Shown here: piece by piece, positions 1 to 52,217 of the stretch | Position numbering within the stretch: the stretch's first letter is position 1 | Layout: each line of letters begins with the position of its first letter | From: Azolla caroliniana | Lineage: Eukaryota > Plantae > Polypodiophyta | Direction: 5' to 3' | NCBI GenBank assembly: GCA_043228905.1 | Contig: JBHGNT010000022.1 | Location: forward strand, 4,836,001 to 4,900,000 | Length of the DNA: 64,000 nt | Made by a program: the position numbers and the translations under genes | The notes under the pieces: model-generated | Seen by the model: only the letters and a program-made list of their open reading frames with translations | Told to the model about the DNA's origin: nothing | The model's database searches: none

Positions 1-1205
1 TTTGACCACGGAAGATCGAAGAAGGGGATTGGGTAATAGTCTATGGCAGTAGTTTGGATCACAGACACAGTTCAATACGGAAATTCGCTAAAAGGTGGTT
101 CGGACCATACGAAGTTCGAAAGATATTCCACAATGGTACTTACCGACTATATGAGTTGGATGGAACAATACTACGGGTGCCTATAGTAGGGAAGCGGGTA
201 AAGATTTTCAAGAAGCGAAGTGACACGGAGCCCTACGTGACCTTACGCAACACCGACATAGAGGAGCAAGCAGACATGGATCATGAAGAGGCGGAAAGCG
301 AAGAAAGTGGACTGAAATTAATAGCTGACATAGTGGGAGAATCAGAGGGTGCTACAGATGAAGGAGAGTAACAAACACCGGCAACTTTGGCACATACCGG
401 AGGATGTGCGGGTTTGGATGGGGTGAGTGTCGTAGTGTGCTTTGTACACTACGTAACATATGTACGGAGTACCCGATTAGCTAAGTATAAAGAAATAGGA
501 GAAAATACTAAAATAATTATGTTACATGCATAGGGTAGGTTTTCTCCTAATTGACTAAGTATAAAGAAATTGGAGAAAATACTAAAATAATTATGCTACA
601 TGCATAGGGTAGGATTCCATGTTAAAAATTTCAAGTTCTTGCCATTGTACTGACACACTATGAGTATTAAAGTTATTGATTTTAGTTACACAAAAGTTTA
701 TCCGACGTAAATATTCTAGATAAACATGATAGAAAAAGTTATTCATGCATAAACACTCGAGTTAAAAGAAAAGCATAATAGAAAAAGTTATTCATGCACA
801 TCTAGTGTGCATGAATACTTGAGTTAGAGAAAAAGCATGATGCTTGCATGTAGTAAGATATACTTCGTCTCTCCCAACACTATATAAGGGTGGGGAGAAA
901 ATTGTAATAGAGGGTGGATTCTTGGGTTAATAAAATTTTCTAATATTGATCTAAAATACTAAACTCGTAAGATTCACGATTTTGTTTTTTAAATCAATCT
1001 TTCTAATATTTTCCAATTCACTATTAGGATTGAAAGGATTGATTAATCTAATTTAATACACTTGTGGGATTCACGAGGTTTCTATATCTCTTTCTTACAA
1101 TCTTTTCATATTCTTATTAGCCCTAAAATTCTTCTCCCTCCTAGTCCATAACCTAGGCAGTTTCCACCCAACTCACGCAACAATCCCGCGCAGAAAGGCA
1201 TGACA
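1..1205 (+). mobile_element. 3' end of a non-chromovirus Ty3/gypsy element (Athila/Tat-like integrase C-terminus, PPT, 3' LTR), inserted into copia A1 gag
   Basis: ORF to 371 has the GPY/F module RWFGPYEVRKIFHNGTYRLYELDG. Purine tract GGATGGGGTGAG at 416-427. LTR TGTCGT(428)...ATGACA(1205) with TATATAAG at 881. Copia gag sequence follows immediately. Confidence 0.8.
481..613 (+). repeat. 59-bp direct repeat (period 74) in the gypsy LTR U3
   Basis: CTAAGTATAAAGAAAT(A/T)GGAGAAAATACTAAAATAATTATG(T/C)TACATGCATAGGGTAGG at 481 and 555. Confidence 0.9.
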
Positions 1206-4200: not shown

Positions 4201-5787
4201 GCTCTAGATGAAGTCCTTCATCCAGATTATCTCCTTGCAAGCTTCTACAGCTGCATGTACTCTGCTTCCGTGGTTGACAATGCAATCATCTTCTGCAGCC
4301 TCGACTACTACGAAACATCTCCTCCTCCATAAGTCATGACATATCTGGATGTCAACCAGCTAGTATCTGCATTAGCCGACATATCTGAGTCTGTGAAACC
4401 ATCAAGTTGGGGTGTTTTGGAGCCAAACCGGAGGCACATACTTGAGGTGCCTTTCAGATACCAGAGTATCCACTTGACCGCGTTCTAGTGCTCTCTTCTG
4501 GGATTGCACATGAACCGACTCACCACTCCGACTGCATATCCAGTATCTAGCCGTGTACATCAAGCTCCCGACGGCAGAGGCATATGGTATCTTCATCATA
4601 TCTGTCTTTTTCCTCGGGCTTTGTTTTCCGGATAGCTTGCAGTTTGCCGGAAGTGTCGATCCAACCGGTTTCGCTTCCGACATGTTGAACAGTTGAAGCA
4701 CCTTTGTCACATACTTCTCCTGTGATAACCACAACAACTTCTTCGACCGGTCCCGGATGATGTGCATTCCCAATATCTATCTTGCCGGCCCCAAGTTTTT
4801 CATTGAGAAGGTCTGGTTCAGAGCCTTCTTCAGCATCCGAATCTTGCCTTGGTCTCGTCCAACGATCAGCATATCATCCACATATAGGAGGAGTATCAGG
4901 AAATCTCCTCCATCAAATTTCTTCACAAACACATAGTGATTGGCCCGCATCTTGTGGTACCCTTGGTCGGTCATGAAGGAGTCGAACTTCCGGTACCATT
5001 GCCGAGGAGCTTGGTTCAGTCCGTATAGGTTCTTCTTCAGCCGGCACACTAGGTGCTCCTTCCCTTTCCTCTCAAATCCTTCCAGAAATGCCAACAATTC
5101 TTCTAGAAGTTTCCTAGCTTCCTCTCAAATCCTCCCCCTTGACTTCGACCTTGTCCCGGTTTTGGGGACTCCGATACTGGCCTCTTCCTCGGTTCTGGTC
5201 ATCTTCCGTGACCAAGACCTTCGGATCGATTCCGGACTCCCGGTCCCTCCGGCGAGCTTCTTCATCTAGCAAGCTTGATTTTACCCTTGCTAGGGACAGA
5301 TGTTTTCCTTCCGGCCCGGCGTTGTCGTGAAGATCCGTCACTACGCGGGGATCGTGAGGCGGAACCGCCGGGGTTTTGGACCGGAAGGATTCAAAGTCGG
5401 TACAAGCTTTGGCGCAAGCTTTACCGAGAAAGTACTTAAGATAGATTGGGAAAGAGAAAAGTTGAGATCAAACAATTGAGAGAGATTGATTGAACTTTTA
5501 TCTTTGGATTTAAGAAACAAGTTACACGATCAATTTGATAACGAATTTCTTCTTCTTAATTTCATAACCCAAAAAAACGTGTTTTTTCTCCTCCCCCCTC
5601 GTTCTTTTATAGATGCTCTCATGCATATGATGCATGTGAGGGTACAAGACATGCATAAAATGCATGTTTGCCATTTGGCGCTTATGTATTACATGTGGTG
5701 CATGATAACCATGTCACTCATTTTAGCTCTCATGTATGAGAATTTACATGTAAAAGTACAATGATAGAAATATAAATTCAACTAAAT

Positions 5788-5850
5788 CGCATGGCTTAAT
5801 GGTAAGCCAATTGACTCCTAACTTGGAGGTGCAAGGTTCGAATCCTTACT
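5788..5850 (+). ncRNA. tRNA-derived Pol III promoter-like module, antisense in the U3 of LTR E1 (not a functional tRNA)
   Basis: A-box TGGCTTAATGG at 5792 with D-arm GGCTT/AAGCC. B-box GGTTCGAATCC at 5835 with T-arm AAGG/CCTT. tRNA-like spacing of 43 nt. Acceptor and anticodon stems do not pair. Confidence 0.7.
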
Positions 5851-5894
5851 TGCCCTCCTTGTAAATATATATATTTATATATTTATTTATCTAG

Positions 5895-6350
5895 TCACCG
5901 GTTCGTTGGATGCTGTCGTCTCACCATCGCCTCGCCGGTTGCCGTTGGATATCGGTGCCTTGCTGGATGCTGTCGTCTCACCATCGCCGGATGCCGTCGA
6001 TTATCGGTGCCTTGCTGGATGCTGTCGTCTCACTGTCGCCGGTTGGTTACCGGTGCCTTGCTGGATGCTGTCGTCTCACCGTCGCCGGTTGGATACCGGT
6101 GCCGCCGCCGGATGCCGTCGTCTCACCGTCGCCGGTTGCCGTCGGATACCAGTGCCACCGCCGGATGCCGTCGTCTCACCGACGCCGGTTGCCGTTGGAT
6201 ACTGATGCCGCTGCCGGATACCGTTGTCTCACCGACGCTGGATGCCGTCACCGGATGCCACCGCCTCGCCGTCGCCGGATACCGTCACCTCGCCGTCGCC
6301 AGATTGCCGTCGGATGCCGCCGGATCACCGGCTCCATCGCCGGTCCGGTT
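5895..6350. repeat. GC-rich degenerate tandem array inside LTR E1
   Basis: Recurrent GGATGC(T/C)GTCGTCTCACC(A/G)TCGCCGG units, about 8 copies with variable spacers. Confidence 0.85.
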
Positions 6351-7806
6351 TTGGTTGGCCAAAAACCTTTACGAGTAGCTAGCCCACCTCCACTCTTAGT
6401 TCAAGTTACCTTGAACTCTCTATGCTCCACACATAGACACAAAGATAATATCTTTTGCTCTACCTTATATATGATGAGAGCCGTATTTGTCGTGCCTATG
6501 TGGGATATCTCACAATTTTCTCTTTTCCTTTCACAAACTTTATACCCTCATATCTTGACATTTAGTTGTTCGTTTCTCGTGTAATAAAGTGCATTTGAAA
6601 CCTCCATCATTTTGTACTTAGATATTAAATTTATTTAAAATGTTATCTTCACAATTATTGTATTATGTGATTCATACTCGATTTCGTACGTTTTATGGGA
6701 TTTTCACACTATTGCCGAAAATCTTCACGACAACGTTACCCAACGTGATAACTAACGTCTCCCAGCTATACGGGAGCGAACCGAGTAGGAGCAATACAAA
6801 TACCTCATCGGCGAGAGGTACTTCCAACGAGGTTGCTTGATGTATCAGTCCTTGGAAGGCATTCATGTGCTCCGCCATACTGGAGCCGTCCTGGTACCAG
6901 AGCCTCAGTAGCTTCTGGAATACCGAAACCCGATTAACGACATTCTTGTTCTGGAACATGATGCCGATCTTCTCCCAGAGTTCATGAGCCTTGCTCTCTT
7001 CATTGAAGTTGTTGTACAGGCTCATGTCAATGAAGCACCGGATGTATGCCATCGTCTTCATGTGCATCACCTCCCACACTGTGGCGTCGATCTTATCCGG
7101 TCTCTTGTCCCCGAATTGAACCGGAAACCAAAGATCTTTAACCACCAGCATATCCCTCATCTTCAACATCCACACTGAGTAGTTGGAGATGGTGAGCTTG
7201 AACATGCCGCCAAACGATTCTTCCATTTCCTGTGTTGTTCGCTTTGATACCAGTTTGTGAGGAATAGAGCGGAATACTGCTCGGACACGACCGAGTTTTG
7301 AATTACTTCAATTGTAGTGCAACACAGTAATGGGAATAGACGTACACAAGATGTTTACGTGGAAAACCCTGAATGGGAAAAAACCACGGGAGCCCACATA
7401 CTCAAACTATCACTATGAAGAAAAAAGGTATAATCAGAGACTTGGAGGCAACGACCTCGAGCTTTGTTTCTTCACCAACTGGTGGTTAAAACAGAGTATT
7501 TCTCTGTATCTCACACTCTCTTTGTCTCTCTCGCTCTCGCTCTGTACAAAAAATATATAACAACAACAATAACAAAACCTATACCTAAAGTGATTGCCCT
7601 AAGTCATATTTATACTTATATGAACTTAGGGCTATTTACAAATATAGCCTCAATAGGCTTGCTCAAGACATATTAACAAATATGTCTCTCTTGCGGTTCT
7701 CACCAGGTTTCCTTTGGTTTCCGGATCTCTTCCAGTTCTCACTAGGTCTTCTTCATTCATCACCGGGTCCCATCCGGAGGGACCGATTTCCCAACAAGTT
7801 TGACCT

Positions 7807-14508: not shown

Positions 14509-15649
14509 TGTCGTGAAGATTTTTGGCAATGGTGTGAAAATTGCGAGGAACATACAAAATCGAGTGTGGTTCTTCACACACAATATAAAACAATAATAGT
14601 AAAGATAAGATTTTAGATTAGTTTAATATCTTGGTAAGAAAATATAGATGTCATCAAGAGCTTCCGAATGCATTTTACTACATGTGAAACGAACAACTAA
14701 GTGTCAAGTTATGTGAGTGTGAAGTTTGAGAAGAAGAGGAAAACAAAACTATGAGATATCCCACATATATAGGACAACATCAAGATTCCAGAGTATATAA
14801 GTAGAGCCAGATCTGTTTATATTATATTTATGTGTTTAGAGCACATAAAGGTTGAGGGTTCTATAACTTAGACGAATGGATGCTCCAAGTTATTTAAATA
14901 GGGTTTTGGACGGCACCGGACTAGATGCGGATCGGACCGGTAAAGATGGACGAATTGATCAGGTCTGTCGGATAGGTTGATCACGATGCACAATGTCTTG
15001 AAGATTCTCGTTGTGAAACGAACAAAATCTTCTATAGGTTCCATCGGTTCATTGGAGGTCGAGTGAAGGTGTAATATGTAGTTAAAACATTTGTAAATAC
15101 AAGACTAAAGCCTTGTAAAATTTGTGTTTATGGGGTGTAAATTAAATTTGAACCTTGCACCTCCAAGATAGGAGACAAATTACTTACCACTAAAACCACT
15201 ACTAAGTGCTTTAGAATTTGTATATTTTCTTTTCATATTCAGTATTTTGTAGGAAGCAAACATATAGAAACCGTGGGCACAAAACCATGGTTCTAGCCTG
15301 AGGTTTTAGCCCATGGTTTCAGCTCGTGGTTTTAGCCCATGATTTTTGCATGGAGAGACCTATAAAAGCCTATAGTTGGGCTTGTGTAAAAGAAAGGGGA
15401 TGGAACTAAAATAAAATAAAAAACTTTTAATCAAAGATTTGAGTTATCTTAATGGTGATGTATCTCGTTTCATAAAACTAAAGTCAAGGGTTCAATCTCT
15501 ATTTGAATCTCTCTCTCTCTCTCTCTTCATCCATCTATCTATCTCCAATACTTTCTCGCTTACGCTGCCAAAAACATTGAATCCTTCCGGTCCAGGATCC
15601 CGGCGGTTCCGCCTCACAATCCGTGCGTAGTGACGGCTTTTTCACGACA
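14509..15649 (+). mobile_element. Solo LTR E2 inserted in A1 RT
   Basis: TGTCGTGAAGAT...TTCACGACA with exact 4-bp TSD GCGT. TATAAAA at 15361. Antisense tRNA-like remnant at ~15145-15200. Host RT rejoins as GRVKSQL. Confidence 0.82.
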
Positions 15650-17677: not shown

Positions 17678-18035
17678 ATCTTCAACCTCGAATTCCACTT
17701 GGTAGGTAGAGGATTCTCCCCAATATGTCACCATTAGGTAGTCCTCATCGAAAAGGAGCTTGTTCGGAAAATGTGATTGTTATCTAGACCTTTGAAGTGT
17801 TCGTTAGAATACTAGTTCTTATGTGTAGCTTGAAGCTCATTTCTTTGGATCCATTTTGATCTTCTTGATTCAATTTCATCACAATCATCTACAATCACTT
17901 CGGATGCATTTTTACCTCTTGCAATCTTATGTGAACTACCTCAATAGAAGAAGAAGACCAACATTTTTACTTCTAGCAATCTTATGAAATTCTTAGGCTA
18001 CTATTTCTTTCTCTCTCTCTTTTTTTTTTTCGTAC

Positions 18036-18100
18036 TTAGCTTACCCTAGTGGTAAGTTGTTACACTACAAGCACCGCGTCTTGGGTTCAAAACCCAATTT
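18036..18100 (+). ncRNA. tRNA-derived (SINE-head-like) sequence
   Basis: A-box-like TACCCTAGTGG at 18042. B-box GGTTCAAAACC at 18084 within a perfect T-arm TTGGG/CCCAA. Confidence 0.5.
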
Positions 18101-18159
18101 CCTCATCTCTCTATTATATACTTCATAGGTATCTCTTAATTCACTAGATGCCACTATGG

Positions 18160-18226
18160 AATGTAGGGGTTGAACCCATGACCTCCTGGTCTCCATTAAG
18201 CAACCTTACCAACTAAACTACATCCA
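18160..18226 (-). ncRNA. tRNA-derived (SINE-head-like) sequence, convergent with the previous one
   Basis: Minus strand reads TAGTTTAGTTGGTAAG (A-box)...GAGGTCATGGGTTCAACCCC (B-box). Confidence 0.55.
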
Positions 18227-18254
18227 TCTAGGTTATATGTGTGTGTGTGTGTGT

Positions 18255-18718
18255 CAACGTATAAAGGCTAAAAAGCTCAAATGCAAGCATAAGTGATATG
18301 TTTAATCATGCATTCAAACATGGTATGTTATACGATTGGACTACAAATTGGATCAAACCTTTACATAAAGGTGGAGATGTAAGTAATGTAAAGAAATATC
18401 GAACCATCATGGTTGGCTCGCTAATGGCAAAACATTTGGATGTATACTGGAATCAAAGATAAGTGCATGGGCTTAAAAAAAGGGTAAGAGCTTACGAAGC
18501 TGGCTTTAGAAAACACCATAACACCAGTGATCACCTTGTCAACCTTCGAGTATTAATGGAGGAAAGTCTCCTTAGAGGTAAAGGTTTATATTGTTGCTTC
18601 GTAGACTTCAAGAAACCTTTTGATATGGTACCTCGTGAGCATCTTTGGAGACGAATGGAAGAACTCATTGTGCCAAGTGAATATATGATTGCAATTTCCC
18701 AAATCTATGAGAAGGTTA
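18255..18718 (+). pseudogene. RTE/RTEX-like LINE reverse transcriptase, N-terminal part
   Basis: Translates to WIKPLHKGGD..YRTIMVGSLMAK, AGFRKHHNTSDH, CCFVDFKKPFDMVPREHLW: non-LTR RT motifs. Confidence 0.85.
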
Positions 18719-19442: not shown

Positions 19443-19462
19443 TGTGTGGAACTCAGGAGAGA

Positions 19463-19514
<52 letters not shown>

Positions 19515-19626: not shown

Positions 19627-19680
<54 letters not shown>

Positions 19681-19772: not shown

Positions 19773-22700
19773 CATGTGCCTTTATTTATAGTATTGTCAG
19801 GAGTTCTCTTGAATTTTCTAGAATGTTCTAGAGTAATTTGGAATATATATGAATTTCCTAGAGTGAAATAATAAATGAAAATAATATTTTTCATATTACA
19901 ATGCATGGTTTAATGGTAAAGGTTCAACCTTAGTTACATAATGTCATGGGTTCAAATCCTTATGTTACAATGCATGGTTTAATGGTTCTTGAAGACTTCT
20001 ATATTGACGATAGAAGTCTTCAAGAAGATCTTAACCATTCGCCAAAATTCGTCACTGCTTCCCAAGTACACTTGCTTGGACTATAGCCTTGCTAATCGAC
20101 CAAATAATAGAGCTTGTTGCAAACCATCTTGGAATCGAGGATGACAACAACCTCGTACTCAGGCCCATCTTCAAGTTCGATCTGGGGTGAAGATGGTGTA
20201 ATACGATTTGGGATAGTGCTGTCTTGATAGGGTTCTAGAAGAGAACTATGAAATACCAGATGTATCCGTATTTTGGGAGGTAAATCAAGGTGAAAAGTGA
20301 CATCATTAATTTTCCGTTAATACGGAAAGGGCCTAACCGTCAATAATCCAGTTTGTCACACGGTCGACTAGTCTTGATGTGTTGTCATAATAGCCATACT
20401 CAATCTCCAATATCAAAAGAGGATGGAAGCCGATGGCGATCCACATAGTCCTGTGTTTGCTGGGTGCGATGTAGATGGATAGATAGTTCCACCTGAATTC
20501 ATCGTAGCCACTCCAAATGATCCTCTGCACAAGGATTTTTGGGTAACTCAGGAGTTTCTAACACACAACAATGAGGACGATAGCCAATATAAGCGTAGAA
20601 TGGTGTAACCCCAATAGAGGAGTGGATAGAATTATTATAAGCAAATTCAGCAATGTGTAGAATATCTGACCAATCATTGGTACGTTCTGCTTGTCCATCT
20701 GTTTGGGGATGATAGCCGGAGGAGAGATTGCAAGTGACCTTGAGCATTTTGAAGAGATGCTGCCAAAATTTAGAGACGAATTGAGGTCCATGATCACTGA
20801 TGATATTGTCGGGAACACCATGATGTTGAAATACTTCACGCATAACAATTGCTGCGGTTTCTTCACTAATAATTTATTTAGTACGGGACACGAAATGTGC
20901 CATCTTAGTATATTGATCTACCACTATTAAGAGCACATTGAAGCCCTTCGAATCCAAAAGATCTGTAATAAAATCTAGAGAAATAGATTGCCACATTTTG
21001 CTGATCAGTAACGGCTCCAACAAACCATATGTATCACATGTTCGAACATAGTCTTCAACAAATCTTCGCATATGGGGCCACCAAAATGATCGTTGTACTA
21101 AATCCAACATTTTAGTATTACCTAAATGTCTGGGTGTGTATGTGTCATGAAAATTTTGTACTATTCGAAGGCGACAAGAATCATTGGGAACATACAAAAG
21201 TTTTTTAAAGAAGAGTAAACCATCATGACATTTGAATTGTCGATAATCCGTACCTGGTTGTTGTGACTGTGAACAAGATACTCGAGAGGAATCGACTTGA
21301 TCTAGAATAGCTTGAGCAAAAAAATTTGTCTTCAAATCTTCATGTATGGTATTGATAATGTGGGAATCAAATGGAGTGTCAAAAACCCACGTTGCTTGAA
21401 GTTGTGATGGACACAAGATTACTTGCTTTTGATTGTCAAAGGCTGGATCACTAGGACAAGGAGCTATATACGAGCATCATGATAATGCATGTGCCTTCCC
21501 TTGTTGCTTGTCCGAACGATAATCTTGAAGTTGAAACGAGTGAGGAACTGAGCCCACTGAGCTTGTCATTTATTTAACATGCGAGCATTATCGAAGTAGG
21601 CAAGATTCTTGTGATTAATAAATACAATGACTTGATGAGGAGATCCTTCTAGAAAATGCCTCCATTGTGCAAAACAGTCCACCATTTGTTGAATGCGGGT
21701 CAATGAATGTATTCATATTGTCTCCCTTTCTACACACTAGGGTTAGGCTATTTATGTAAATAGTGAGAAGGGCAGTTGCCCTAAGTAGTCATCATATAAA
21801 CTGACTTTGTAACCTAGCTTTTGGTTGTTGCAATTATAGTTCATCTTGCATTCTTGTTGATATTCCTTCTATTCTGTTTGTAGTTGCCATCAATGTTCTT
21901 CATTGCATTTATCAATGATCTCCTCACAGAAGAGTGTTGAGATTGTTCTGCACCTAGAAGGCCGTGTTCTCAACACTATTGCTAATAGCTCCTTGTCATG
22001 TATTGAAAAGAATTGCGTGCGGAAGCAATATAGGAAATAGAACAACAGAAAACGCAGGTTTAATGGAAAGCTTAGGTTTGCATAGTACACATGGGAGAGA
22101 TAGAGAGAGAGTAAAACACTAGAGCTTAATTCAAAAATAATACTCGATCTGTACATACGTCGTGCTCAGTGAGCACCTTTTATACAAGCCTTGACAATGG
22201 GCTAACACAAGTACTGACAATACTTGACTGCTCATAAGTGAGCATTGACACTCACTTCCAAAATTATTCCTTTACGAGGAATATCTCTCTAACGGCCTTT
22301 CGGTTTACACACCGATACGGCCTTCCTACGCACCGGTCTGCGTACTGGTTTACGCATCCGTTTTACGCACCAGTCCGGCCTAACCGATCAGTCCCAACTG
22401 ATCCGGTCCTCAGCTTGCTCAGCCGATCTGGCCGCTGTTGAGCTTGTCTCTCAACACTCCCCCTCAAGCTCAACTTGAGGCTCTTCCGGATCTTTCGGAT
22501 CACCGCTCCGGTTCCTCCTAGCTCCACGCCTCGCTCGCGCTCCTCGGCCTGTTCGACTCCGCACGCTTCGACCCTTCCGGTCGGCTTGTCTGCTCCCACG
22601 GCCCTTCAGAGCTCCCTTGCTGTCACGGTGTTGGCGCTTCTCCTGCTGCCTTCTTTTCCGCTTGGCCCTCAGTTGATTCAGTGTATCCGAATCAAACATT

Positions 22701-23427
22701 CGAGCCGACTCGACTACCTCCGATCGGTTTTCGCTCTCGTCTGAGTTGGTTGTCTCCAACTCGTCTTCGGTCTTCTCACCCTGGACAACGTCATCCCCCC
22801 CATGCTTGGTTGGCTCCAGCTCTTTCTTTCGGTTGCTCCATGTCCGCTCTTCCGCTCGTTCGCCCTCAGCTTCTTCAGCCGATCCGGAATCGAATTCGTC
22901 ATCTGACTTGGTGTCACGGTCTTTTCCGCTCCTTTCCTAGTCCCTTCCGTGGTCATTCGGGACGTCTCTCCCCCTCAAGTTCGGCATGTCGAGGTGACGC
23001 AACCCAAGCGCACCCGATGTCAGGAATAGTACTAAAACAGAGATGGAATTAGTACTAAAGAAGAGCAGTACTATTAGTACTAAGAGGACGGGACTGCGTA
23101 AGACTCCCGAGAGAGGAAGTGAGAAGAGGAGAGAGAGAGATAGCGAGAATGAGAGAGAGAGAAAAATGATGACAGCAGCTAATATATTATGTGAAAGACA
23201 AGTACAAAGCGGATAAGAGGCTTAAGACTGGCGTTTAACCAATTTGGTTCAACATAATGCCTAGTGCCTTCTTTTATAGTGTTGTCAGGAGTAATCCTGA
23301 AACTTCTAGAATGTTCCAGAGAAATCTGGAATATACATTACTTTAAAACATAAATGAAAATAATATCCTATGAATTACAATAGATGGTGTGATGGTTAAG
23401 AGCTCGACCCATATACCATAAGGTCAT

Positions 23428-24431
23428 GGGTTATACGCTCCTCGTAGATCGATTTTGGTAAAAAACTTGGCACCATTAACTCGCTCTAAAAGACTTGATA
23501 TAAGAGGAAGTGCATACCTATTCCGGATGGTGACCTTATTCAATCCGCGGTAATCAACGACGAGACGAAGTGAGCCATCTTTCTTCTTGACAAAGAAGAT
23601 GGGTGCACCGGCCGGAGATTTCGAATGACGGATGAACCCGCTTGCCAAGTTGTCCTCTATGTAGGCTCGAAGGACTTCTAACTCGGTGGGTGACAAGTTG
23701 TAAATTGGTCCCCATGGTGGCTCGGTTCCTGGTTGTAAATCGATGGGACAGTCATAGGGACGGTGATGAGGAAGGGTACCGGCTTTTACCTTGTCAAATA
23801 CATCGGCATAAGGATGATATTTTGCCGGAAGTTGTACTGAGGAGTCCTTCTTAATAGTGTTGGAAGGATGTACTGATATTGCAAATAGGAACATTGCCTC
23901 CTTGTGTCCTTCTTCGCGTAATTGGTGGAGTGAAATGGTCGAAACTCGGTGAGTAGATTCTTGGGGTGGTCGATATCGGACTTCTCTTGTTCTCCAATCT
24001 ATGGCTGGATTATGTAATTGAAACCAAGGTAATCCTAGGACAATGGGATGCTCTGGACTACTAATTATATTAAATGATATTACACACACAAAACTACCTA
24101 GGACAACTGGAATGGGTTCTGATTCTTCTACAATATTCCCGGAAGCAATGGGACGACCATCAATGACTACTACAGATGCGGGACAAGGAAGTTTTCTTAG
24201 GGATATCTGAGAAGCTTGGGCAAAATTTCGATCCATGAAATAGGAATTAGCTCCGGAATCTAAGAGTGCTAGGACGGGTACTGGGGGAGTACTTTTAGTA
24301 CTAACAATGACTTGGGCTAGGAACACATTGCTAACTTGCTTGGAAGGAATGGAACCACTAATGGGCTGTACAGATCTGGGGCTGCTGTCCAACCACATGG
24401 CTCCTATTTTGGCTGGACTCAATCGTTTAAC
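23428..24431 (-). pseudogene. pol: Pol (protease plus N-terminal RT) in the -1 frame to gag, 3'-truncated
   Basis: [47 protein letters not shown]. Confidence 0.88.
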
Positions 24432-25638: not shown

Positions 25639-25650
25639 AAATTGGTTCAA
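25639..25650 (-). promoter_or_regulatory. Non-tRNA primer-binding site, complementary to the LTR R-region start (self-priming type)
   Basis: Sense TTGAACCAATTT lies 2 nt after the 5' LTR. Its exact complement AAATTGGTTCAA is at 25854-25843, 33 nt downstream of TATAAAA. Confidence 0.75.
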
Positions 25651-25994
25651 ACTGTCAGGAATAGTACTAAAACAGAGATGGAATTAGTACTAAAGAAGAG
25701 CAGTACTATTAGTACTAAGAGGACGGGACTGCGTAAGACTCTCGAGAGAGGAAGTGAGAAGAGGAGAGAGAAAAATGATCACAGCAGCTAATATATTATG
25801 TGAAAGATAAGTACAAAGCGGCTAAGAGGCTTAAGACTGGTGTTGAACCAATTTGGTTCAACATAATGCCTAGTGCCTTCTTTTATAGTGTTGTCAGGAG
25901 TAATCCTGAAACTTCTGGAATGTTCCAGAGAAATCTAGAATATACATTACTTTATAATAATACATAAATGAAAATAATATCCTATGAATTACAA

Positions 25995-26058
25995 TAGATG
26001 GTGTGATGGTTAAGAGTTCGACTCATATACCATAAGGTCATGGGTTCGAGTCTTGCCA
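25995..26058 (+). ncRNA. tRNA-derived module, antisense at the U3 start of the Tcn1-like LTR
   Basis: A-box TGGTGTGATGG at 25999, B-box GGTTCGAGTCT at 26043. Homologs at 19906-19959, 23384-23431, 42150-42206 (-), 46935-46988 (-) and a B-box at 50938. Confidence 0.65.
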
Positions 26059-29000
26059 TATCATGTCCAGACCAAGAGGCTTGGTGAAAATATCGGCGTG
26101 CTACCGATTCGTCGGAACATACTGAAGTTCGACTTCACCGGAGAGAACACACTCACGGACGAAATGGTAGTGCACCTCAATGTGCTTGGTCCGTGCGTGG
26201 AAAACAGGGTTCTTTGCGAGCTGGATGTTGTTGAGGTTGTCGCAGTAGATGGTCGTCGGATCAGACACCTCCTCTTGCAGGTCCTTAAGTAGCCGCTTCA
26301 ACCACATGGCTTCGTATGTAGCGACAGCCGCTCCTCGATGCTCAACAGTGCAACTGTCGGCTACTTCTTGCTACTCCACACGATCGCGGTACTACCAAGA
26401 GAGAACGCATATCCGGACATGGATCAACGATCGGTAGCGTTGCCAGCCCAATCAACATCGGTGTAGCCGACCAATTGCGAGGTTGTACCGGTCCAATATA
26501 GCTGTCCCCGGTCCTTAGTGCCGCTTACGTACCGCAGTACACGTTGCACACACTGAAGGTGCTCCTCGGTAGGTGGCGCCATAAACTGATTGATCACCCC
26601 GACTGGATAACTGAGATCGGGTCGGGTGATTGTCAAGTAGATAAGGCTTCCAACAATTTGTTGGAACCTCGTGGGGTCGCATACCTCTCCGGAATTGGGG
26701 CGAAGCTTGACGGTTCTATCCAGAGGAGTCGAGACGGACTTACCGTCTGCCATCCTGAATTTGAAGAGGATATTCAGCACGTAATGACATTGGCTTATCA
26801 GTATGCCTTCGGCGGTGTGGATCACTTCGATCCCAAGGAAGTAATGAAGATCCCCCAGATCCTTCTCTTTGTGCGTAAGCAGTCTCCTCGGCTTCCTGCG
26901 CGGAGAATGCACGGCCGAGTCTCCACTACTCGCCGACTCTTCATCAGACTGGTCGAACCGTCTTAGTCGTTCATTCGGTCCACTTAACCAAAACGAAATC
27001 GGACTCTCTTCGCGGGTCCCGATTTCAGGCTCATCCGGAGGCATCTCAGCCTCGCGAACCTCATCATCAGAATTCAGATTGGAGGTGAGGTCCGGAGTCG
27101 GAGGCAAGTACCAGGACGCGGACTCGTCAAACACAACGTCGCGGCTCACACGCGCTTGTTTGGTGCGTGGGTTATAACATTTATAACCCTTCTTCTTGTC
27201 CGAACAGCCGACCAAGATACACTTCTCGGCTTTCGCGTCCAACTTCCTCCTTTTCTCCTTCGACACATGCACATACGCAATGCTACCGAAAACTTGTAAG
27301 TGTCGCAAGTTCGGCTTCGTTCCGAAATATAGCTCATGCGCCGAAACTTTTTCTTTGATCCGATTCTGGATGTATACCACGGTTCGTACCGCCTCGGCCC
27401 AGTAGAACTTGGGCAAGCGCTTCTCCTCCAACATTGCTTGTGCAACATCCACAATTGACTGATTTTTCCTCTCGGCCACGCCTTTTGCTCCGGCATGTAT
27501 CTACAACTGAATTCGCGCCGAATTCCCATCTGTTGTAGGTAACCGTTGAATTGACCGGAAAAGTATTCTTTTCCCCCATCCGACTGTAGGCATTTGATCT
27601 TTCTTCCTGTTTCCGTTTCCACGAACCCTTTGAGGTCCCGGAAATAGTCAAAGACTTCGCTCTTCCTCTCAATGAGGTAGATCGACGTGTGCCGCGTGTA
27701 GTCGTCGATGAAGGAGACGAAATATCGGCTCCCGCCAAGACTAATGTTTTGTGACCGCCCCGACACATTGGAGTGTATCAAGTTGAGCTTGTTCCGGCCC
27801 GGTTACGCTCGTTGGGGAAAGGAAGTCGGTGTTGCTTCGCAAGCTGGCAGGCTTCACAAATTTGTGCCTTTCGGCCACTAAATTTGGGCAATCCGAACAC
27901 CACCTGTTTCGATTGCAGGTCTTGAAGCCGCTGGTAGCTGACATGGCCTATCCGCTTGTGCCATAAGTCAATGTCCGACTTGACTTTTTGTCCCTTCGCG
28001 AACATTGCGGTGCCACCGTCACTAGAGTCAAGGATAAACATCCTCCCATCTCTGCGCCCTTGCGCGATAACACGGCCTTCTTCCTCAATGAAGTACCCGA
28101 GATGTGTAAATCGGACTTGCATCCCCTGGTCGACGATCTGCCCGACCGACACCAGGTTCTTTGTTATTGTCGAGACGTGCAACACATTCATGAGTTTCCC
28201 TTTCTGCCCAACATGGCTCAGGGAAACTTCTCTGACATTCGCGATCGGATGCAGCGTGTCGTCTCTAGTTGCGACTACTCCCGGTTGCATCGGTTTTTCC
28301 AGGTATGAGAACCACTCCTTGTGGCACGTCATGTAGTTTGATGCTCCGGAGTCGACGTACCACACCTCGTTTGATTTTGGGGTGGTTTGCTTCATTGAGT
28401 TTGCTTCGTGTCTCGTCACGAAGATTGACCTTTTTCCGGCATTTCCAGATCCTACGGCGTAGTGTGATCGTTGCCGATTTCCTTTGTTGGTCTGTCCGGA
28501 ACTTGTTCCGGACCCAGTTCTCTCCGAATCGGCGCACTTTTTCCAACACTCGCTCTCCCTGTGGCCTTTCTTGCCACAGTACCAGCATTCCGCGGCGGAT
28601 TTCCCTTGCCGGTTCTCGTCCCCTCGACTCCCCCTGTTTCCGGAGGGTCCAGAATTGATCCCGTCGGCGGCCGCCTCCATTGCGTACCGACTCGCCTCGT
28701 CCTCCACGTCCACGGGGCCTATCTCCCTCTGTGTACAACATCTTTCTGTCGGTGTGCGTGCTCGTTGACGCACCCGCGTGGTTCTCCTCTACCAGGAGGA
28801 TCGAATGTAAGTCGAAAAAGGACGGCGTATTCTCCTGGGTACACACAGCAGTTTGGAACGCCCCGAACTTCGACGCCAAACCCCCGAGACAGACCTGGAC
28901 CATCGCTTTCATCGATGCTCACATCGATGGAAGCTAAGGAGTCGCATATGTCCTTAATCCTCGAGGTATAGTTAGCCACCGACAAATCGCGTTGTCGGAG

Positions 29001-41799: not shown

Positions 41800-44700
41800 T
41801 CGGTCTCAGCCGAGTTTGTTCATCAGCACTGTTCTTCTCCCTTCCCATCCGGAGGGACCTGTCTCCCAACATAAGCCACCATTCAGATGCACCTATCGAT
41901 GTCTGTTTACCTCATGGTGCAATCGTGTTCGATTGCCTTCCAACTATGGAAGACACTCTCGTACACCTACGAAAAGAAGGTAGCTACTATGAAGATATAT
42001 CTGATTCGGCTCAAGGCACACCTCAACGAGTACGAAAGCATAAGTTCCCAAATTGCGGCTCAAGGGACAACTATGGAGGATGAACTAAGAGCAATGTTGC
42101 TTATGAGTAGTCTCCCCCTTGTCATGAAATAGCATGATATGGCTTCAAAAGGATTTAAACCCATGACCTTGTGTCACATGGGTTGAAGCCCTACCATTAA
42201 GGTATACATTGTAATATGAAGAAGATTGTTTTCATTTATTATTTCACGTAGGAAATCCATGTATATTCTAGATTTCTCTAGAACATTCTAGTCAAGAATA
42301 CACCTAAGCACACTATAAAAAGAGGCACATGGCATTATTGAGAACCAATTCGGTTCAACGCCAGTCTTAAGCCTCCTAGCTACTCTTGTATCTTATCGTC
42401 ATATAATATACCACTTGTTATCATTGTTTTCTCTCTCTTCTCTCTCTCTCTCTCTCTCTCCTTCTCTTGTGAGTCTCCACACACTTTTCCCCTTCTTAGT
42501 AGTAATCTTCATTCTTCCTCTCTATCTTTAGTACTAATTCTCCCTGTCTCTAGTACTATCCCTTATCCCTCTCTTTTATACTAATCCTCTTATCCTTCCT
42601 ACTAAATGGCAATTGTTAGCACTCAAGAATACTAATCCGTTTTCTCAGAGTTCTAGTGCTTAAAAGAGAATTTTGTAGCACTAGAACAAGAAAATCAACG
42701 TCTGTTGGGAGATCTTCAACAAATAGCTCTAGAAAAATAACAACATGGGGATCATGCGTTACATGTGCAACAACTTGAAGCAACTATTGTGTCACTACAA
42801 CAACATGAATCAAGCACTCAAGTGACTCCCAAAGAACCCAACATCAGTCTTCCTATGAAGTTTGATGGAACGCGATCATAGTTTAGAGTATTCCTTAATC
42901 AAGTACATTTGGTGATATAAATGCATCCTTCTCGATATCCCACCGATGTATCACGAGTGGGACTAGTAGGCACACTACAGAGTGGCACAACTCTGGCATG
43001 GTTCGCCCCTTTGTTAGGAAAAGGCTCTCTGTTGTTAAATCATTTTGAAGAGTTTATTAGAGAGTTTAAAGCATGTTTTGGAGATACTGATGGCATTAGG
43101 ACGGCAATCAACAAAATCCGAAGACTACGTCAATGTCATCGATTGGCCTCAGCTTATGCCGCGGATTTCCGTCTTCTCGCCACTGATATTCCTTGGGATG
43201 ACCAAGCATTGATGTAGCAATTTCGTTATGGCCTATGTAATGATGTCAAGGATTTACTCTTGACCTTCCCTAAAGAACCAAAGTCTCTCACGGAAGCAAT
43301 CAGTCGGAAGAGGAAATCAAATAGCCGCTAGTACTAATTGTACTAAACCCGAGTCTATTTTAGTAGGACTGTCTGATAGTCCTAATAGTACTAATAGACC
43401 AAGTCTATCGAACAACTTTGAAGTCCTTAGTCAGTTAGAAGAAGAGTTAAATGACTAAGTCCAGCCAAAATGGGAGCCTTTTGGCTGGATAGCCCTAGAT
43501 CTGTGCAACCCATTAGTGGTTACATTCCCTCTAAGCAAGTTAGATTCCGGAGCCAATTCTTACCTCAAGTAACAGTTAGTACTAAAAGTAACCCTCCAGT
43601 ACATGCCTTAGCACTCTTAGATTCCGGAGCCAATTCTTGCTTCATGGATAGGAATTTTTCCCAAGCTCATCAAATATCCCTAAGAAAATTTCCTCGCCCA
43701 GCATCTGTAATAGTCATTGATGGTCACCCCATTGCTTTCGTACATATCGTAGAAGACTCAGAGCCGATTCAGGTTGTCCTAAATAATTTGGTGTGTGTAG
43801 TATCATTTAATATAATTAGTAGTCCAGAGCATCGAATTGTCTTGGGGTTACCATGGTTCAAATTACATAACACAAACATAGATAGGAGAACAAGAGAAAT
43901 ACGATATCAACAAACCTGAGGATCTACTCATCGAATTTCAACCATTTCGTTACATCAAATACGTGAGGAAGGACGCAAGGAATCAATGTTTGTATTCGCA
44001 ATATTAGTAAAACTTTCCAACACCACTAAAGAGGAATCCATAGTTCAACTTCCAGAGAAGTATCGTCATTATGCCGACATGTTTGATAAGGTACAAGCCA
44101 GTACTCTTCCACATGATCATCGACCATATGATTGTCCCATTGATTTACAACCAGGAAAAGAGACACCATGGGGACCAATCTACAACTTGTCACCAACCGA
44201 GCTAGAAGTCCTTCGAGCTTGCATAAAGGAGAATTTGGCAAATGGGTTCTTTTGACATTTGAAATCTCTAGCCGGCGCACGCATTTCCTTTTTCAAGAAA
44301 AAGGATGGATCACTTTGTCTCGTCATGAATTACTGTAGCTTGAATAAGGTCATCATCAGGAATAGGTATGCACTTTCCCTTATCTCGAGCCTTTTAGAAC
44401 GGATTAATGGTGCAAAGTTCTTCACAAAGATCAACTTACGAGGAGCATATAACCTCGTACGGATCCGATGGGGAGATGAATGGAAGACCACTTTTCGCAC
44501 CCGATATGGGCACTTCAAGTATACGGTTATGCCATTCGGTCTCACCAGTGCGCCAACAGTCTTCCAGCACATGGCAAATGATATATTCTGAGATCTTTGG
44601 GATATCTGTTTGATCATATATTTGGATGATCTACTAGTTTATTCGAAGACTCAAGAAGAGCATGATTCTCATGTACTATTAGTACTAAACGACTTCGAGA

Positions 44701-46845: not shown

Positions 46846-49800
46846 AAACTAGGTCCTCAATCTAAGATGACTCGTAACACTTGTCATCTTAAGAGGGGGG
46901 TAGTGTCGTGATATAGCATAGTATGGCTTCAAAAGGATTTCAACCCATATCCTTTTGTCACATGGGTTGAAGCCCTACCATTAAGCTATACACTGTAATA
47001 TGAAGAATATTGTTTTCATTTATTATTTCACGTAGGAAATCCATGTATATTCTAGATTTCTCTGGAACATTCTAGTCAAGAATACTCCTAAGCACACTAT
47101 AAAAAGAGGCACATGGCATTATTGAGAACCAATTCGGTTCAACGTCAGTCTTAAGCCTCCTAGCTACTCTTGTATCTTATCTTCATATAATATACCACTT
47201 GTTATCATAATTTTCTCTCTCTCTTCTCTCTCTCTCTCCCTCTCCCTCTCCCTCTCTCTCTCTCTCTCCTTCTCTCGTGAGTCTCCACACAGTTTTCCCC
47301 TTCTTAGTACTAATTCTCATTCTTCCACTCTATCTTAAAACTAATTCTCCCTATCTCTAGTACTATCCTGACACCCCCTTCGTGGGAAACTTTCATTACA
47401 ACTGTGTGCAATGTGTCAATTGTTGCCGTAAAGTACTCCTCAGTCACAAGTGCAATTCTGACTGAAGCAGCTTGAAGAAAATCACTTGCGAACGATTCGG
47501 CCAACGACACTTATGGAGTACAAGGTTCGATCGACCGATCGAATAGCCGAGGAAGAGGTTCTTCACGACAGTCAAACAACCAGCGAACTTGGAGCAAGAA
47601 ACCCGGACACATCAAAGTTGATTGCCGCACACTCAAAGCCAAAAACGATAAGGCTCAGTGAGCTGATCAGAAGTGTGGCCAACATGAGGAGGTCAATTAC
47701 GTCGGCTCTTCAGCCGAAATATTGTCGAACGAATCGAACATCTTGTTCATCAAAAATCAATCAAATCAGAAGTTTTGCTTATGACTGAAGAGTCAAACAG
47801 TTGGCTCTTGGACTGGTGCACTTCATATCACATGACCCCTCGTTGATCCGAATTTCGGCAATACTCAGCCCAATATTCCGACTCAGTCCGAATCGGAAAT
47901 TCGTAGGATTGTGCAATAATTGGAATCAACGTAAGATACATTAGGAATTATGGACTTAAGATACCTCAAGCTGAGGATCTTCAGGTGTGAGGCATATGCC
48001 CTCACATCGAAAGATGGTTGCCACAAACTTGCACCAAGGCCTAGGAAATGTATTTTCCTAGGTTATGGACCAGATGGCGAAATCGGATACCGACTCTTGG
48101 ACCCCAAGCAGAGACAATGAGTCGACTACGCATATAACAGTCGAAAGGCCTATTGAACTCCGAAGGGTAATTTTTTCCAAAGTGCCGACCCTTCATGAAG
48201 ACCCAACCCATAACACGAGATTGGCTTCACTGGTAGCCGAATCCTCGAACCCCGACTTGACAACGCTCGACTCGAAACAGCCGAATGGTTTGGCTCTGGA
48301 TTATCCGACTTCAACACCCGATGCGACTAGTCCAATCATACCTCGAAGATCCGAGAGACTGTCGCATTCACCAGAGAGATACTCTCGTAGAATCTTTGTT
48401 ACGGACACTGGAGAACTGACGCCATACGAAGAAGCATCAACATCTGTCGATTCTGCCACCTGGCATCTAGGAATGGAGTCCGAGATGAACTCCATTCGAG
48501 CAAACCAAACTTGGGACTTGGACGAGCTCCCAAAGAATGGACTTGCTCTTCCATGCAAGTGGGTCTATCGAGTCAAAGGGACGTCTGATTCGGCCACCCC
48601 AAAATTCAAGGCCAGACTAGTAGCTAAAGGTTTTCGACAGGAATGTGGCGTTTATTTCGACGAAATCTTTTCACCAATGGTGAAAATGACAACCCTTAGA
48701 TTCATGCTCGACATCTTGGCAGCCGAGGACTTGAAGCTGATTCAACTAGATGTCAAAATGACATTCCTCCATGGTGATCTAGAGGAGGAAATTTATATGG
48801 ATCAACCGAAAGGCTTCGTGGCACCCGGCCAAGAACATATAGTCTGCCGACTCACGAAGAGTCTATACGGTCTGAAACGGGCACCGCGATAGTGGTATAA
48901 GAAGTTTGATGACTTCACTCACTCCGTCGGCTTCTCTAAGACCGATGAGGACCGCTACCTCTTCACAAAAGCAGCTCGAGATGGGTCACTCATCTTCCTC
49001 ATCATCTACATGGATGACATGCTAATCTCTGGTCGGCAAGCCAGACAGCTTGCCGAACTTGTTCAGCAACTTCAGTTGAAGTTTTCCATGAAGGACCAGG
49101 GTCCGAGAAAACAATTGTTTCTGTCCCAATCCGACTATATTCGACGTGTCCTCGACCTCTTCAACATACAATCGGCAAAATATGCTTCGATTCTGGTCCC
49201 CATTAGCCGCCGGCTATCTCGGCGAGACTCCTCGACATCCGGTTCGGAGGGGGAAACCATGAAGTCGGTACCGTATGCACCGGCAGTCAGCTCCCTGATT
49301 TATGCAATGGGCGCGACACACCCTGACATTGTTCACGCCATAGGAGTCATCAGCAGATTCATGCACAACCCTGGCCGATCACACTAGAATGTAGTAAAGC
49401 ATGTGTTCAAATATCTGGTGGGCACAAAAGACCTTGGCATTCTATTTGACCCGAACGACACCTCAAGCGTACTCGGCTATACCGACTTGGACTTTGCTGG
49501 ATGTGTGGACAGTCGAAAATCAACAAGCAGATACTGCTTGAATTTCGGCAATGGAGCAATCTCGTGGAAATCGAAACTTCAAGACTGCACTACCACATCA
49601 ATGACCAAGGCCGAATACGTAGTTGCTTCCAATGCGGCGAAAGAGGCCTTATGGCTTGGTTAGTTGGCTTGCACGTTTCGACAAGTCAAATCAGACTCGG
49701 TTCCAATTGTCAACAATGGCATATCTAATCCGAATCCACTCTGTTGAAAAATCCGGTTCTTCACAACACCTTCAAGCATATCGATGTTCAATATCACTTT

Positions 49801-52217
49801 ATTCGAGACTGCATCATCTCAGGAAAAATCGGCCTCGAAAAGATATCTACAACAAAAAATGTCGCAGATGGGATGACCAAATGTCTTTCGGCGGATCGAT
49901 TCCGATCCCTATGGCAGTAGATGGGCATAACTAAGAATCAGTCTAATTAAGTCGGACATTCAGGATGTTTTTTGAACAATCGACTTCGATAGGTCGAAGC
50001 TCGGTTTTAGTTTTCCCAATCTCGACAAGTTCCACCTTTTGTTTTTCGAAGTTCACCAACTCGAACGAAATTTTTCGCTTTGTTCGAAAAACCTCGTATC
50101 AATCTGTATTGTACATTTTGTTCGATGTATACGCCCATTACGGGGGAGTGTTGAATGCGGGTTTCTAATGAACGTATTCACATTGTCTCCCTTTGTACAC
50201 ACTAGGTTTAGGCTATTTATGTAAACAGTGAGAAGGGCAGTTGCCCTAAGTCAGTCAGTATATAAACTGACTTTGTAACCTAGCTTTCTGGTTGTTGCAA
50301 ATATAGTTCATCTTGTGCCTAACGTCTGTCTCTCTCTTGCATTCTTGAATTCTTGTTTATCTTCCTTCTTGATTCTGTTTCTAGTTGCCATCAATCTTCT
50401 TCATTGTTTCTATCAACGATCTTCTCATAGAAGAGTGCTAAGATTGTTCCTCACCTAGACGACCGCATTCTCAACACTATTGCTAGTAGCTCCTTCTCAT
50501 GGAACTTGTAGTTGGTGGCGTCAAATTTGCGCGAATGGAAAGACGAGGTATGTAATTTCTCATCGTCGCGATTCAAACTGTGAGGAATAGTACTAAGATA
50601 GAAATGAGGGAATTAGTACTAAAGATGAGGGTTAGTACTATGAGGAAGGGAGTGTGTGAAATTTAGGAGAGGAGAGAGAGAGAGAGAGAGAGAGAATCAT
50701 GATAATAAAGAGAGGATACAAGAACAACTAGGAAGCTTAAGACTGGCGTTGAATCGAATTGGTTCTGAATAATGTCATGTGCCTCTATTGATAGTACTGT
50801 CAGGATTTCTCTTGAAGTTTCTAGAATGTTCTAGAGTAATCTGGAATATACATGAATTTCCTATAGTGAAATAATAAATGAAAATAATATTTTTTGCATT
50901 ACAATGTATGGTTGAACCCTTGTAACATAAGGTCATGGGTTCAAATCCTTTTGGAGACATACCATGCCACATTGACGATCGTAGGAATTTTCTCAAGGCC
51001 TAGATTTCCTGAAGTGACCTAGTCCCAAACAAAGTGATATCAAATGTTCACGCCAGCCGACCGAGCCATATGACCTCTTTTGCCGCATCAGACACAACTA
51101 CATATTCGGCATCGGTCACTGATGTGGTCGTGCCCTCTTGAAATTTCGACTTCCACGAAATTGCTCCAATGCCGAATTTGAAGCAATATCCGGTTGTTGA
51201 GTTTCAACTGTCCAAGCAATCGGCAAAGTCTGACTTGGTGTAGCTGACAATGCCTGAATTATTGTTCGAGCCGAATAGGATGCCATAGTCTTTTGTGCTC
51301 ACAAGATATCTGAACACATGCTCACTGTGTTTCAATGCAATCAGTTGGGGTTGTGCATAAATCTGTTGACGGATCTTGCGGCATGAGCAATGTTTGGTCG
51401 TGTCATGACCATCACGTACATCAAGGAGCCTATTGTTGGTGCACATAGTAACAACTTCATATCTTCACCCTCAGACTTGGATGTTGGACAGTCTAATTGA
51501 GACAGCTGAAAGCTTACTGGGTGCACGGTCAAAGCAAATTTGGTTGATTGCATGCTGAAGAGTTCCAAGACACATTTATTCAATGTAGTCGGCTTGAAAC
51601 AAAAATAGTTGTCGTCGATCTCGGAACCGATTGTTCTTCATACCCAAAATGTGTCTTGCCAGACCGAGGTCCGTCATGGCAAACTTCAACTGCAATTGCC
51701 AAACAAAATCGACAATCTCTTCGGCATGCTGACCGAAGAGTAGCATGTCATCCATGTAGAGGATGAGGAAGATGGGTGACCCATCTCAAGTTGTTTTGGA
51801 GAAAGGCAATGATCCTCATCGTTCTTGGAGAAGTTGACCGATTGTATGAATTCGTCAAACTTCTTATACCACTACCTTGGCGCCTGTTTCAGGCCATATA
51901 AACTCTTCTTAAGTCGGCAGACTAGATATTGTTTTCCAGCTATAACAAAGTTTTTCTAATATTCCATGTCAATCACCTCCTCTAGGTCACCATGGAGGAA
52001 TATCGTTTGTACACCTAACTGAATTAGCTCTAAGTCATCAGTTTCCACTATGCCGAGCATGAATTGAAGGGTTGTCATTTTCACTATTGGTGAGAAGATT
52101 TCATCGAAGTCGACACCAAATTCTAGCTGAAACCCTTTTACTACTAATTGAGCATTGAATTTGGGATTAGCCGAATCAAGCGTCTCTTTCAATCAATAGA
52201 CTAATTTACAAGGAAGA

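What the first reader, a model, noticed from the sequence alone, without database searches (positions are those of the whole stretch)
5788..5850. Antisense tRNA-like Pol III modules built into the U3 of two unrelated LTR families
Seen: LTR E1 carries A-box TGGCTTAATGG and B-box GGTTCGAATCC 43 nt apart, with D- and T-arms still pairing while the acceptor and anticodon stems have decayed. E2 has the homolog (~15145-15200). The otherwise dissimilar Tcn1-like LTRs carry the same architecture (19906-19959, 25999-26053, 42150-42206, 46935-46988). In every case it is antisense and upstream of the LTR TATA box. Known: TFIIIC-bound tDNAs act as heterochromatin barriers in yeasts, and Cassandra TRIMs carry 5S-derived Pol III promoters in their LTRs. 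Inference: these elements convergently carry a portable tDNA-like insulator or Pol III promoter that may protect the LTR promoter inside heterochromatin. I do not know of a description of this.
Basis: partly seen in the sequence, partly recalled or inferred. Interest (0 to 1): 0.8.

Follow-up and report, generated by a model that had tools for sequence, protein, structure and literature searches.

The report
Backward tRNA promoters in retrotransposon ends
Two unrelated plant jumping-gene families carry a back-to-front, tRNA-like promoter in their terminal repeats, and in one family its key bases are preserved across lineages, so it likely binds the cell's tRNA-gene machinery next to the element's own promoter, though binding and effect are untested.

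Summary
The modules are real. All six named sites carry A/B-box pairs (5 strict hits in the window vs 0.08 in shuffles). One family is a self-priming, Tcn1-like chromovirus with gag/pol/chromodomain remnants; the other is two solo LTRs with Phygy-like 4-bp NCGN target duplications. Their modules are unrelated between the boxes, so likely captured separately. In 75 outside chromovirus LTR copies, found by an anchor outside the module, 62 keep both boxes, 58 at 43-44 nt spacing. Box-critical bases show 3-9 lineage-level changes against 13-18 expected (p 0.002-0.03). Whole boxes are no more conserved than flank, the cloverleaf is not kept, and 5 of 9 high-coverage contigs change A-box G10. In E1 vs E2 the module is a 78% island in unalignable flanks. 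It is not a sporadic SINE insertion. Best reading: a retained TFIIIC/Pol III element back to back with the LTR promoter. The insulator role is untested. tRNA-like LTR sequences are published (Helenus, sense, non-coding elements), and this scan noted similar modules in two other genomes. New variant; interest 0.5.

The parts
5323..6732 (-). E1, solo LTR of a Phygy-like (non-chromovirus-type) family; 10-bp inverted ends, 4-bp TSD GCGT/ACGT; strand inferred
   Evidence: NCGN preference also in loose ends at 5323
5792..5845 (+). E1 tRNA-like module: A box 5792-5802, B box 5835-5845; CTCCTAA sits exactly in anticodon-loop register (CCT, Arg); CAA 11-13 nt before the A box
   Evidence: sequence read directly
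5895..6330 (.). Tandem repeat array (about 50-nt units) inside E1, absent from E2
   Evidence: (D10)
14509..15649 (+). E2, solo LTR of the same family, 4-bp TSD GCGT/GCGT, inserted in a Copia RT region
15146..15200 (-). E2 module, 42 of 54 nt identical to E1's; B box damaged
19906..19959 (+). Module in the chromovirus 3' LTR at 19372-19990 (element on minus strand; LTR 5' end rearranged)
23385..23432 (+). Module cut inside its B box by a deletion, LTR 23018-23432
25653..26063 (-). Chromovirus 5' LTR, followed by gag (24419-25654) and PR-RT (23424-24434)
25999..26053 (+). Module in that LTR, 44-nt spacing
25639..25652 (-). Self-priming PBS, complementary to the LTR sequence at about 25840-25853 just after the TATA box; both sides change together in the copy at 50570-50578 / 50748-50757
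   Evidence: also locus L004
42120..47373 (+). Two-LTR chromovirus (LTRs 42120-42563 and 46904-47373; PPT 46891-46903; chromodomain in ORF 46450-46911), TSD in a C-run (CCCCT / CCCCCT)
42151..42204 (-). Module in its 5' LTR, TTTT right after the B box
46935..46988 (-). Module in its 3' LTR, TTTT right after the B box; TATA at 47097
50909..50948 (+). Module with the A box deleted, chromovirus LTR 50579-50975

Best explanation
Each LTR family carries a fixed, tRNA-like A-box/B-box module pointing away from its own promoter, which likely recruits TFIIIC (and probably Pol III) and is predicted to be kept because it helps the neighbouring Pol II LTR promoter stay open. Shown: the module is built into both families; it is antisense and about 110 nt upstream of the TATA box in the chromovirus; its spacing is fixed while its distance to the LTR end varies; its box-critical bases resist change among chromovirus lineages; it does not fold as a tRNA. 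Inferred: two separate captures of a tRNA or SINE head into U3, copied into every LTR by reverse transcription; TFIIIC binding; TFIIIB loading on the AT-rich stretch between module and TATA box; a local open or barrier effect in heterochromatin, where chromodomain elements insert. Being antisense, the module cannot make the element's genomic RNA.
For: 62 of 75 unique outside copies, ascertained by an anchor about 66 nt outside the module, keep A+B with at most 2 mismatches; spacing 43-44 in 58 of 62; B box to LTR end 10-41 nt, so not an integrase-end footprint. The 12 box-critical columns show 7 lineage-level changes vs 18.2 for base-matched non-box columns (p 0.005, 64 copies). On 59 copies with four tree/clade settings: 3-9 vs 13-18, p 0.002-0.03; private changes are as frequent as elsewhere. 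Variation falls on the degenerate positions: position 9 is A/G in 63 of 64, position 11 C/T in 64 of 64, position 57 A/G in 60 of 64. In the B-box CpG, C56 has 8 private and 0 lineage-level changes while its G partner toggles to the allowed A. E1 vs E2: module 42/54, three downstream and one upstream 60-nt flank at shuffle level. Among E1 variants shown, the two in the A box are at degenerate positions. In contigs of runs X1, X2, X12 the module is contiguous with its LTR and depth does not peak on it. The module lies at the outer edge of the chromovirus LTR, between flank and promoter. Pol III cassettes with working A/B boxes in an LTR exist in foamy viruses (PMC3993851 passages).
Against: No binding, chromatin or RNA data. 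All 22 box columns together are not more conserved than flank (Fisher p 0.79); the unmatched critical-vs-flank test gave p 0.097 and 0.006-0.21. G10 changes to A in 11 of 64 copies, 3 times at lineage level, and in 5 of 9 distinct high-coverage contigs; only 3 of those 9 have both boxes perfect. C62 is T in 47 of 62 copies; I classed it as degenerate after seeing this. Parts between the boxes are also conserved (chromovirus AAGGTCATG; 23 of 24 nt in E1/E2), which pure TFIIIC binding does not predict. C>T/G>A decay in the module (6%) equals that at the LTR end and TATA side. Clustered Arabidopsis tRNA genes are methylated and silenced (PMC7544208, title and passages), so A/B boxes do not guarantee open chromatin in plants. 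Most LTR families in the window lack the module, as does Selaginella SM-Tcn1 by eye. 76 of the 80 named loci come from one assembly series. 15 rows of the E1 variant table were not shown.
Confidence: 0.45

Rival explanations
1. The module is a Pol III transcription unit and its product matters: a short antisense hairpin RNA, or read-through into the PPT/integrase end from the 3' LTR, that tunes the element's own activity.
For: 16 of 62 copies have TTTT directly after the B box. An alternative hairpin joining the inter-box 5' part to the T-arm is 79-80% paired; three of four chromovirus window copies fold with z -2.3 to -3.0. Inter-box sequence is partly conserved. CAA and AT-rich upstream sequence resemble plant tRNA gene starts (PMC3082873 passages).
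Against: 46 of 62 copies have no terminator next to the B box, and E1's first TTTT is 557 nt on. Alignment folding gives only about -0.5 kcal/mol. The hairpin changes are a few subfamily-level events. The E family lacks this hairpin. In the chromovirus the CAA lies about 5 nt downstream of its textbook place.
Confidence: 0.2
2. A passenger: tRNA or SINE heads captured once in each founder LTR, whose apparent constraint comes from recent amplification, sequence exchange between subfamilies, or overlap with other LTR signals.
For: Whole boxes no better conserved than flank. Frequent G10 and C62 departures in high-coverage contigs. E2's B box is damaged. Free tRNA-like modules lie nearby (18042, 18220), so donors are at hand.
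Against: The critical-versus-degenerate contrast inside the same 11-nt boxes (Fisher p 0.0002-0.025), fixed spacing amid variable flanks, and the E1/E2 island of identity.
Confidence: 0.2
3. The stretch is kept as a DNA or RNA structure needed in replication (plus-strand priming, strand transfer or integration at the U3 end), and the box likeness is inherited from a tRNA donor.
For: In the chromovirus it begins 10-41 nt from the LTR end just after the PPT and can form a hairpin.
Against: A-box T8, A14, G18 and G19 lie outside the hairpin yet show 0 lineage-level changes. The E module lies about 640-890 nt inside its LTR. The distance to the LTR end varies.
Confidence: 0.1
4. A landing pad or decoy that draws TFIIIB-targeting integrases.
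Against: By eye, none of the 76 copies printed and none of the six window LTRs has a foreign junction between the anchor and the A box; 12 loci ended too early to judge.
Confidence: 0.05

Closest known systems
Helenus / TRIMp3 (Kojima 2024, PMC10886601; parts 1-4 of 6 of the text read, supplement passages seen)
   Same: tRNA-like sequence inside LTRs, conserved around boxes A and B, not a working tRNA, multiple origins proposed through SINE capture; one plant family (Selaginella).
   Different: Helenus are 311-1263 bp non-coding TRIMs; the Helenus LTRs seen in the supplement carry the tRNA-like part in sense, proposed to make the genomic RNA. Here the module is antisense, in U3, in a gag-pol-chromodomain family that keeps its TATA box and self-primer. 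The paper notes that other Repbase LTRs hold tRNA parts but analysed only TRIMs.
Cassandra TRIMs (PMC7215508, passages)
   Same: Pol III promoter in plant LTRs.
   Different: 5S-derived (boxes A and C), non-autonomous, drives the element's own RNA.
Foamy virus LTR Pol III miRNA cassettes (PMC3993851, passages)
   Same: A/B-box Pol III units inside the LTR of an autonomous retroelement, boxes shown to be needed.
   Different: Animal retrovirus; long pri-miRNA hairpins with terminators; here stems are about 10 bp and most copies lack a close terminator.
tDNA / TFIIIC heterochromatin barriers of yeasts (titles seen in the reference list of PMC13578239; otherwise recalled)
   Same: A/B or B boxes placed between silent chromatin and a promoter.
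   Different: Shown in yeasts at host loci; I found no test in plants or inside an LTR.
Tcn1 chromoviruses and Phygy (Neumann 2019, PMC6317226 passages and Additional file 5; Novikova 2010, PMC2864245 passages and SM-Tcn1 file)
   Same: Tcn1: chromodomain, self-priming, R region and PBS resemble SM-Tcn1 by eye. Phygy: 4-bp NCGN TSD.
   Different: The passages read mention no tRNA-like module in the LTR; SM-Tcn1's LTR shows none by eye.

Membership tests
Helenus (TRIMp3) | tRNA-like sequence with A and B boxes in the LTR | tested here: met
Helenus (TRIMp3) | Short non-coding TRIM | tested here: not met
   Chromovirus is 5.25 kb with gag, PR, RT, RH, INT and chromodomain remnants; E LTRs are 1141 and 1410 bp against at most 323 bp in Helenus; E internal region not seen
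Helenus (TRIMp3) | Pol III promoter able to make the genomic RNA (sense) | tested here: not met
   Antisense in the chromovirus; inferred antisense in E; Helenus-1_SMo is sense
tRNA gene | Cloverleaf recognised by ARAGORN or Rfam | tested here: not met
Sporadic tRNA-SINE insertion | Present in a minority of copies | tested here: not met
   62 of 75 copies intact; most others deleted or decayed
Sporadic tRNA-SINE insertion | Own TSD and tail; multiplied apart from the LTR | tested here: not met
   No TSD by eye; no depth peak on the module at 80% likeness (depth is a rough measure)
chromovirus|Tcn1 | Chromodomain on the integrase | tested here: met
   PF00385, E 9e-15, ORF 46450-46911
chromovirus|Tcn1 | Self-priming in place of a tRNA PBS | tested here: met
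chromovirus|Tcn1 | 5-bp TSD | tested here: inconclusive
   Lies in a C-run, reads as 5 or 6 bp
chromovirus|Tcn1 | RT/RH/INT phylogeny within the Tcn1 clade | not testable with these tools
   Reference fasta too large to read; one search gave mostly unnamed hits
non-chromovirus|Phygy | 4-bp NCGN TSD | tested here: met
   GCGT/ACGT and GCGT/GCGT; family-level loose end also ends in NCGN; reference
non-chromovirus|Phygy | tRNA-Trp PBS and polyprotein phylogeny | not testable with these tools
   Only solo LTRs held
tDNA/TFIIIC insulator | TFIIIC occupancy and barrier activity | not testable with these tools
   Needs ChIP and reporter assays

The most novel reading that the evidence does not exclude
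Protein-coding LTR retrotransposons of non-seed plants have twice captured a tRNA-type promoter, back to front, as a portable TFIIIC barrier that keeps their own Pol II promoter working after they insert into heterochromatin.
Probability: 0.3. Interest if true: 0.75.

Novelty: new variant of a known kind. Interest (0 to 1): 0.5.

Why it matters
If the module works, selfish elements that aim at silent chromatin carry their own anti-silencing part taken from tRNA genes, spread in many copies through the genome. That would be a first test case for tDNA-type barriers in plants and a 55-bp candidate insulator. It also shows that Pol III boxes in LTRs can be kept when they cannot make the element's RNA, which the Helenus model does not cover.

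Tried and rejected
No whole genome is held, so a genome-wide copy set could not be built. No RNA holder listed; this says nothing on expression. Viral-contig scans found nothing for either family. Genome-contig scans gave 0 hits and 12 prokaryote records that I took as chance matches and did not examine. Rfam on the whole window: no tRNA. Protein searches did not name the host or lineage (one Ceratopteris hit at 47%). Run X11 did not cover the chromovirus module region or E1 at 80% likeness: no conclusion. A second, sense 'module' in E2 (15445) has 2 mismatches, is absent from E1, and is within the chance rate: rejected. The perfect B-box-like word at the chromovirus start site is the self-primer, and SM-Tcn1's homologous word lacks the match: treated as coincidence. 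Origin by run-on copying of a tRNA primer: CCA does not sit at positions 74-76, not supported. A link between the chromovirus module and the free module at 18220 was suggested pairwise (24/33) but a profile gave only E 0.02 on the T-arm: open. E LTRs show no significant similarity to the Gypsy LTR at 428-1205, so that element could not orient them.

Full report
Setting. The window is a nest of Copia and Gypsy LTR retrotransposons. No whole genome is held. The lineages found (Tcn1-like, Phygy-like) point to a non-seed land plant, likely a moss; this is inferred from Neumann 2019 (PMC6317226 passages), and earlier scan notes on this genome say moss or fern (unchecked).

Observation. All six named sites carry an A-box/B-box pair. 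With recalled textbook patterns, 5 pairs have at most one mismatch against 0.08 in shuffles. Two further chromovirus LTRs hold broken modules (23385-23432, 50909-50948). None is a tRNA by ARAGORN or by Rfam's cut-off.

Family T. Six LTR copies align at 75% mean column identity. They flank gag, protease, RT, RNase H, integrase and chromodomain remnants. The sequence after the 5' LTR is complementary to the sequence just after the TATA box, and both sides change together in a second copy: self-priming, as in 83% of Tcn1 elements. This fixes the orientation: the module is antisense, at the start of U3, about 110 nt upstream of the TATA box. The Selaginella SM-Tcn1 sequence shows a similar R region and PBS but, by eye, no module.

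Family E. E1 (5323-6732) and E2 (14509-15649) are solo LTRs with 4-bp NCGN duplications, the mark of Phygy. Orientation is inferred from TATA position and a pyrimidine tract. Their modules share 42 of 54 bases while four neighbouring 60-nt blocks are at shuffle level. E1 has CTCCTAA in exact anticodon-loop register (sequence read directly), pointing to tRNA-Arg(CCT); no host tRNA was available to test it. Between the boxes the E and T modules are unrelated, so two captures are likely. The other 21 LTR-like stretches scanned in the window have no pair with fewer than 3 mismatches.

Outside copies. One metagenome scan with a 21-nt anchor outside the module gave 97 loci. I dropped 12 with under 170 nt upstream, 6 that did not look like the family next to the anchor, 3 exact duplicates and 1 repeat of the same insertion, leaving 75. 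Of these 62 keep both boxes within 2 mismatches, 58 at 43-44 nt, with 10-41 nt from B box to LTR end where it could be placed (51 of 62). 76 of the 80 named loci come from one assembly series. Contigs of runs X1, X2 and X12 (three coded species labels) run through the module into its LTR flanks for both families, without a depth peak on the module; such depth is not a copy number.

Constraint test. For column counts I left out 12 rearranged copies (64 left). Changes were split into lineage-level (internal branches) and private. The 12 box-critical columns had 7 lineage-level changes against 18.2 for base-matched non-box columns (p 0.005), with private changes at the usual rate. On 59 copies (5 dropped as possible repeats, 4 of them needlessly), with trees built with or without the box columns and clades of at least 2 or 3, the count was 3-9 against 13-18 (p 0.002-0.03), and critical versus degenerate box columns gave p 0.0002-0.025. 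Eleven of the twelve had no lineage-level change in the strictest setting; G10 had three. Against: all 22 box columns together are no better kept than flank; the unmatched comparison with flank is weaker (p 0.006-0.21); G10 is A in 5 of 9 distinct high-coverage contigs; C62 is mostly T and was classed as degenerate after I saw that (it adds 2 changes); the LTR's last 15 columns are as constrained as the boxes.

RNA shape. The cloverleaf is not kept (anticodon stem 24%, D 65%, T 74% paired), while another hairpin is 79-80% paired. Only 16 of 62 copies have TTTT right after the B box. C>T/G>A decay in inserted copies is the same in the module as at the LTR end and TATA side, so dead copies show no shielding.

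Mechanism. Being antisense, the module cannot produce genomic RNA. Selection that follows the box consensus fits a protein reading the DNA, TFIIIC (inference from established Pol III biology; plant upstream TATA/CAA from PMC3082873 passages). TFIIIB would load on the AT-rich stretch between module and TATA box. I commit to a cis effect on the LTR promoter (0.45), of which a true barrier is one form (0.3). Chromodomain elements are thought to insert in heterochromatin (PMC7466625 passages), which gives a motive; methylated, silent tRNA clusters in Arabidopsis (PMC7544208) are a caution. Rivals: antisense Pol III RNA (0.2), passenger (0.2), replication structure (0.1), landing pad (0.05).

Prior art. 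Helenus (PMC10886601), Cassandra and foamy-virus LTR cassettes already place Pol III boxes in LTRs. Searches found no report of an antisense A/B module in U3 of coding plant LTR elements; the library lacks most subscription journals and Repbase, two large supplements of PMC6317226 and the .doc supplements of PMC2864245 could not be read, and Kojima states that other Repbase LTRs hold tRNA parts. This scan noted tRNA-type boxes in LTRs of two other, probably fungal, genomes.

Verdict. A real, family-wide, partly constrained feature; a new variant of a known kind; function untested. Interest 0.5.

Noticed in passing
window 18034-18230: Two convergent tRNA-like heads (18042 +, 18220 -) between a T-run and a (TG)n run, next to what reads by eye as a LINE RT fragment (about 18330-18730). 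The minus one keeps an acceptor-like stem and scores 16.1 bits on Rfam tRNA. Possibly a composite SINE.
   Followed up: partly
window 25639-25652 and 25840-25853; 50570-50578 and 50748-50757: Self-priming pair with matching changes on both sides in a second copy; SM-Tcn1, for which no priming signal was reported, shows the same complementarity by eye.
   Followed up: partly
window 19960-20030: Inverted duplication at the chromodomain end has replaced the PPT and the 5' end of this LTR; a piece of the A box is duplicated. The LTR also has a 166-nt tandem duplication (19465-19778).
   Followed up: no
window 1-1205: 3' end of a non-chromovirus-type Gypsy (integrase tail, purine tract, LTR 428-1205) whose LTR has no A/B module.
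   Followed up: partly
window 35284-39369: Uninterrupted 1361-aa Copia gag-pol reading frame between LTRs 34476-34768 and 39563-39853 that are 98% identical: a young insertion.
   Followed up: no
window 46960-46976 and homologues: Inside the chromovirus module a second B-box-like word lies 28 nt before the main one and changes in step with it between subfamilies; it reads as a direct or an inverted repeat.
   Followed up: partly
window 31304-31699 and 41570-41857: 54-nt tandem repeats inside Copia LTRs, variable in copy number (D1).
   Followed up: no
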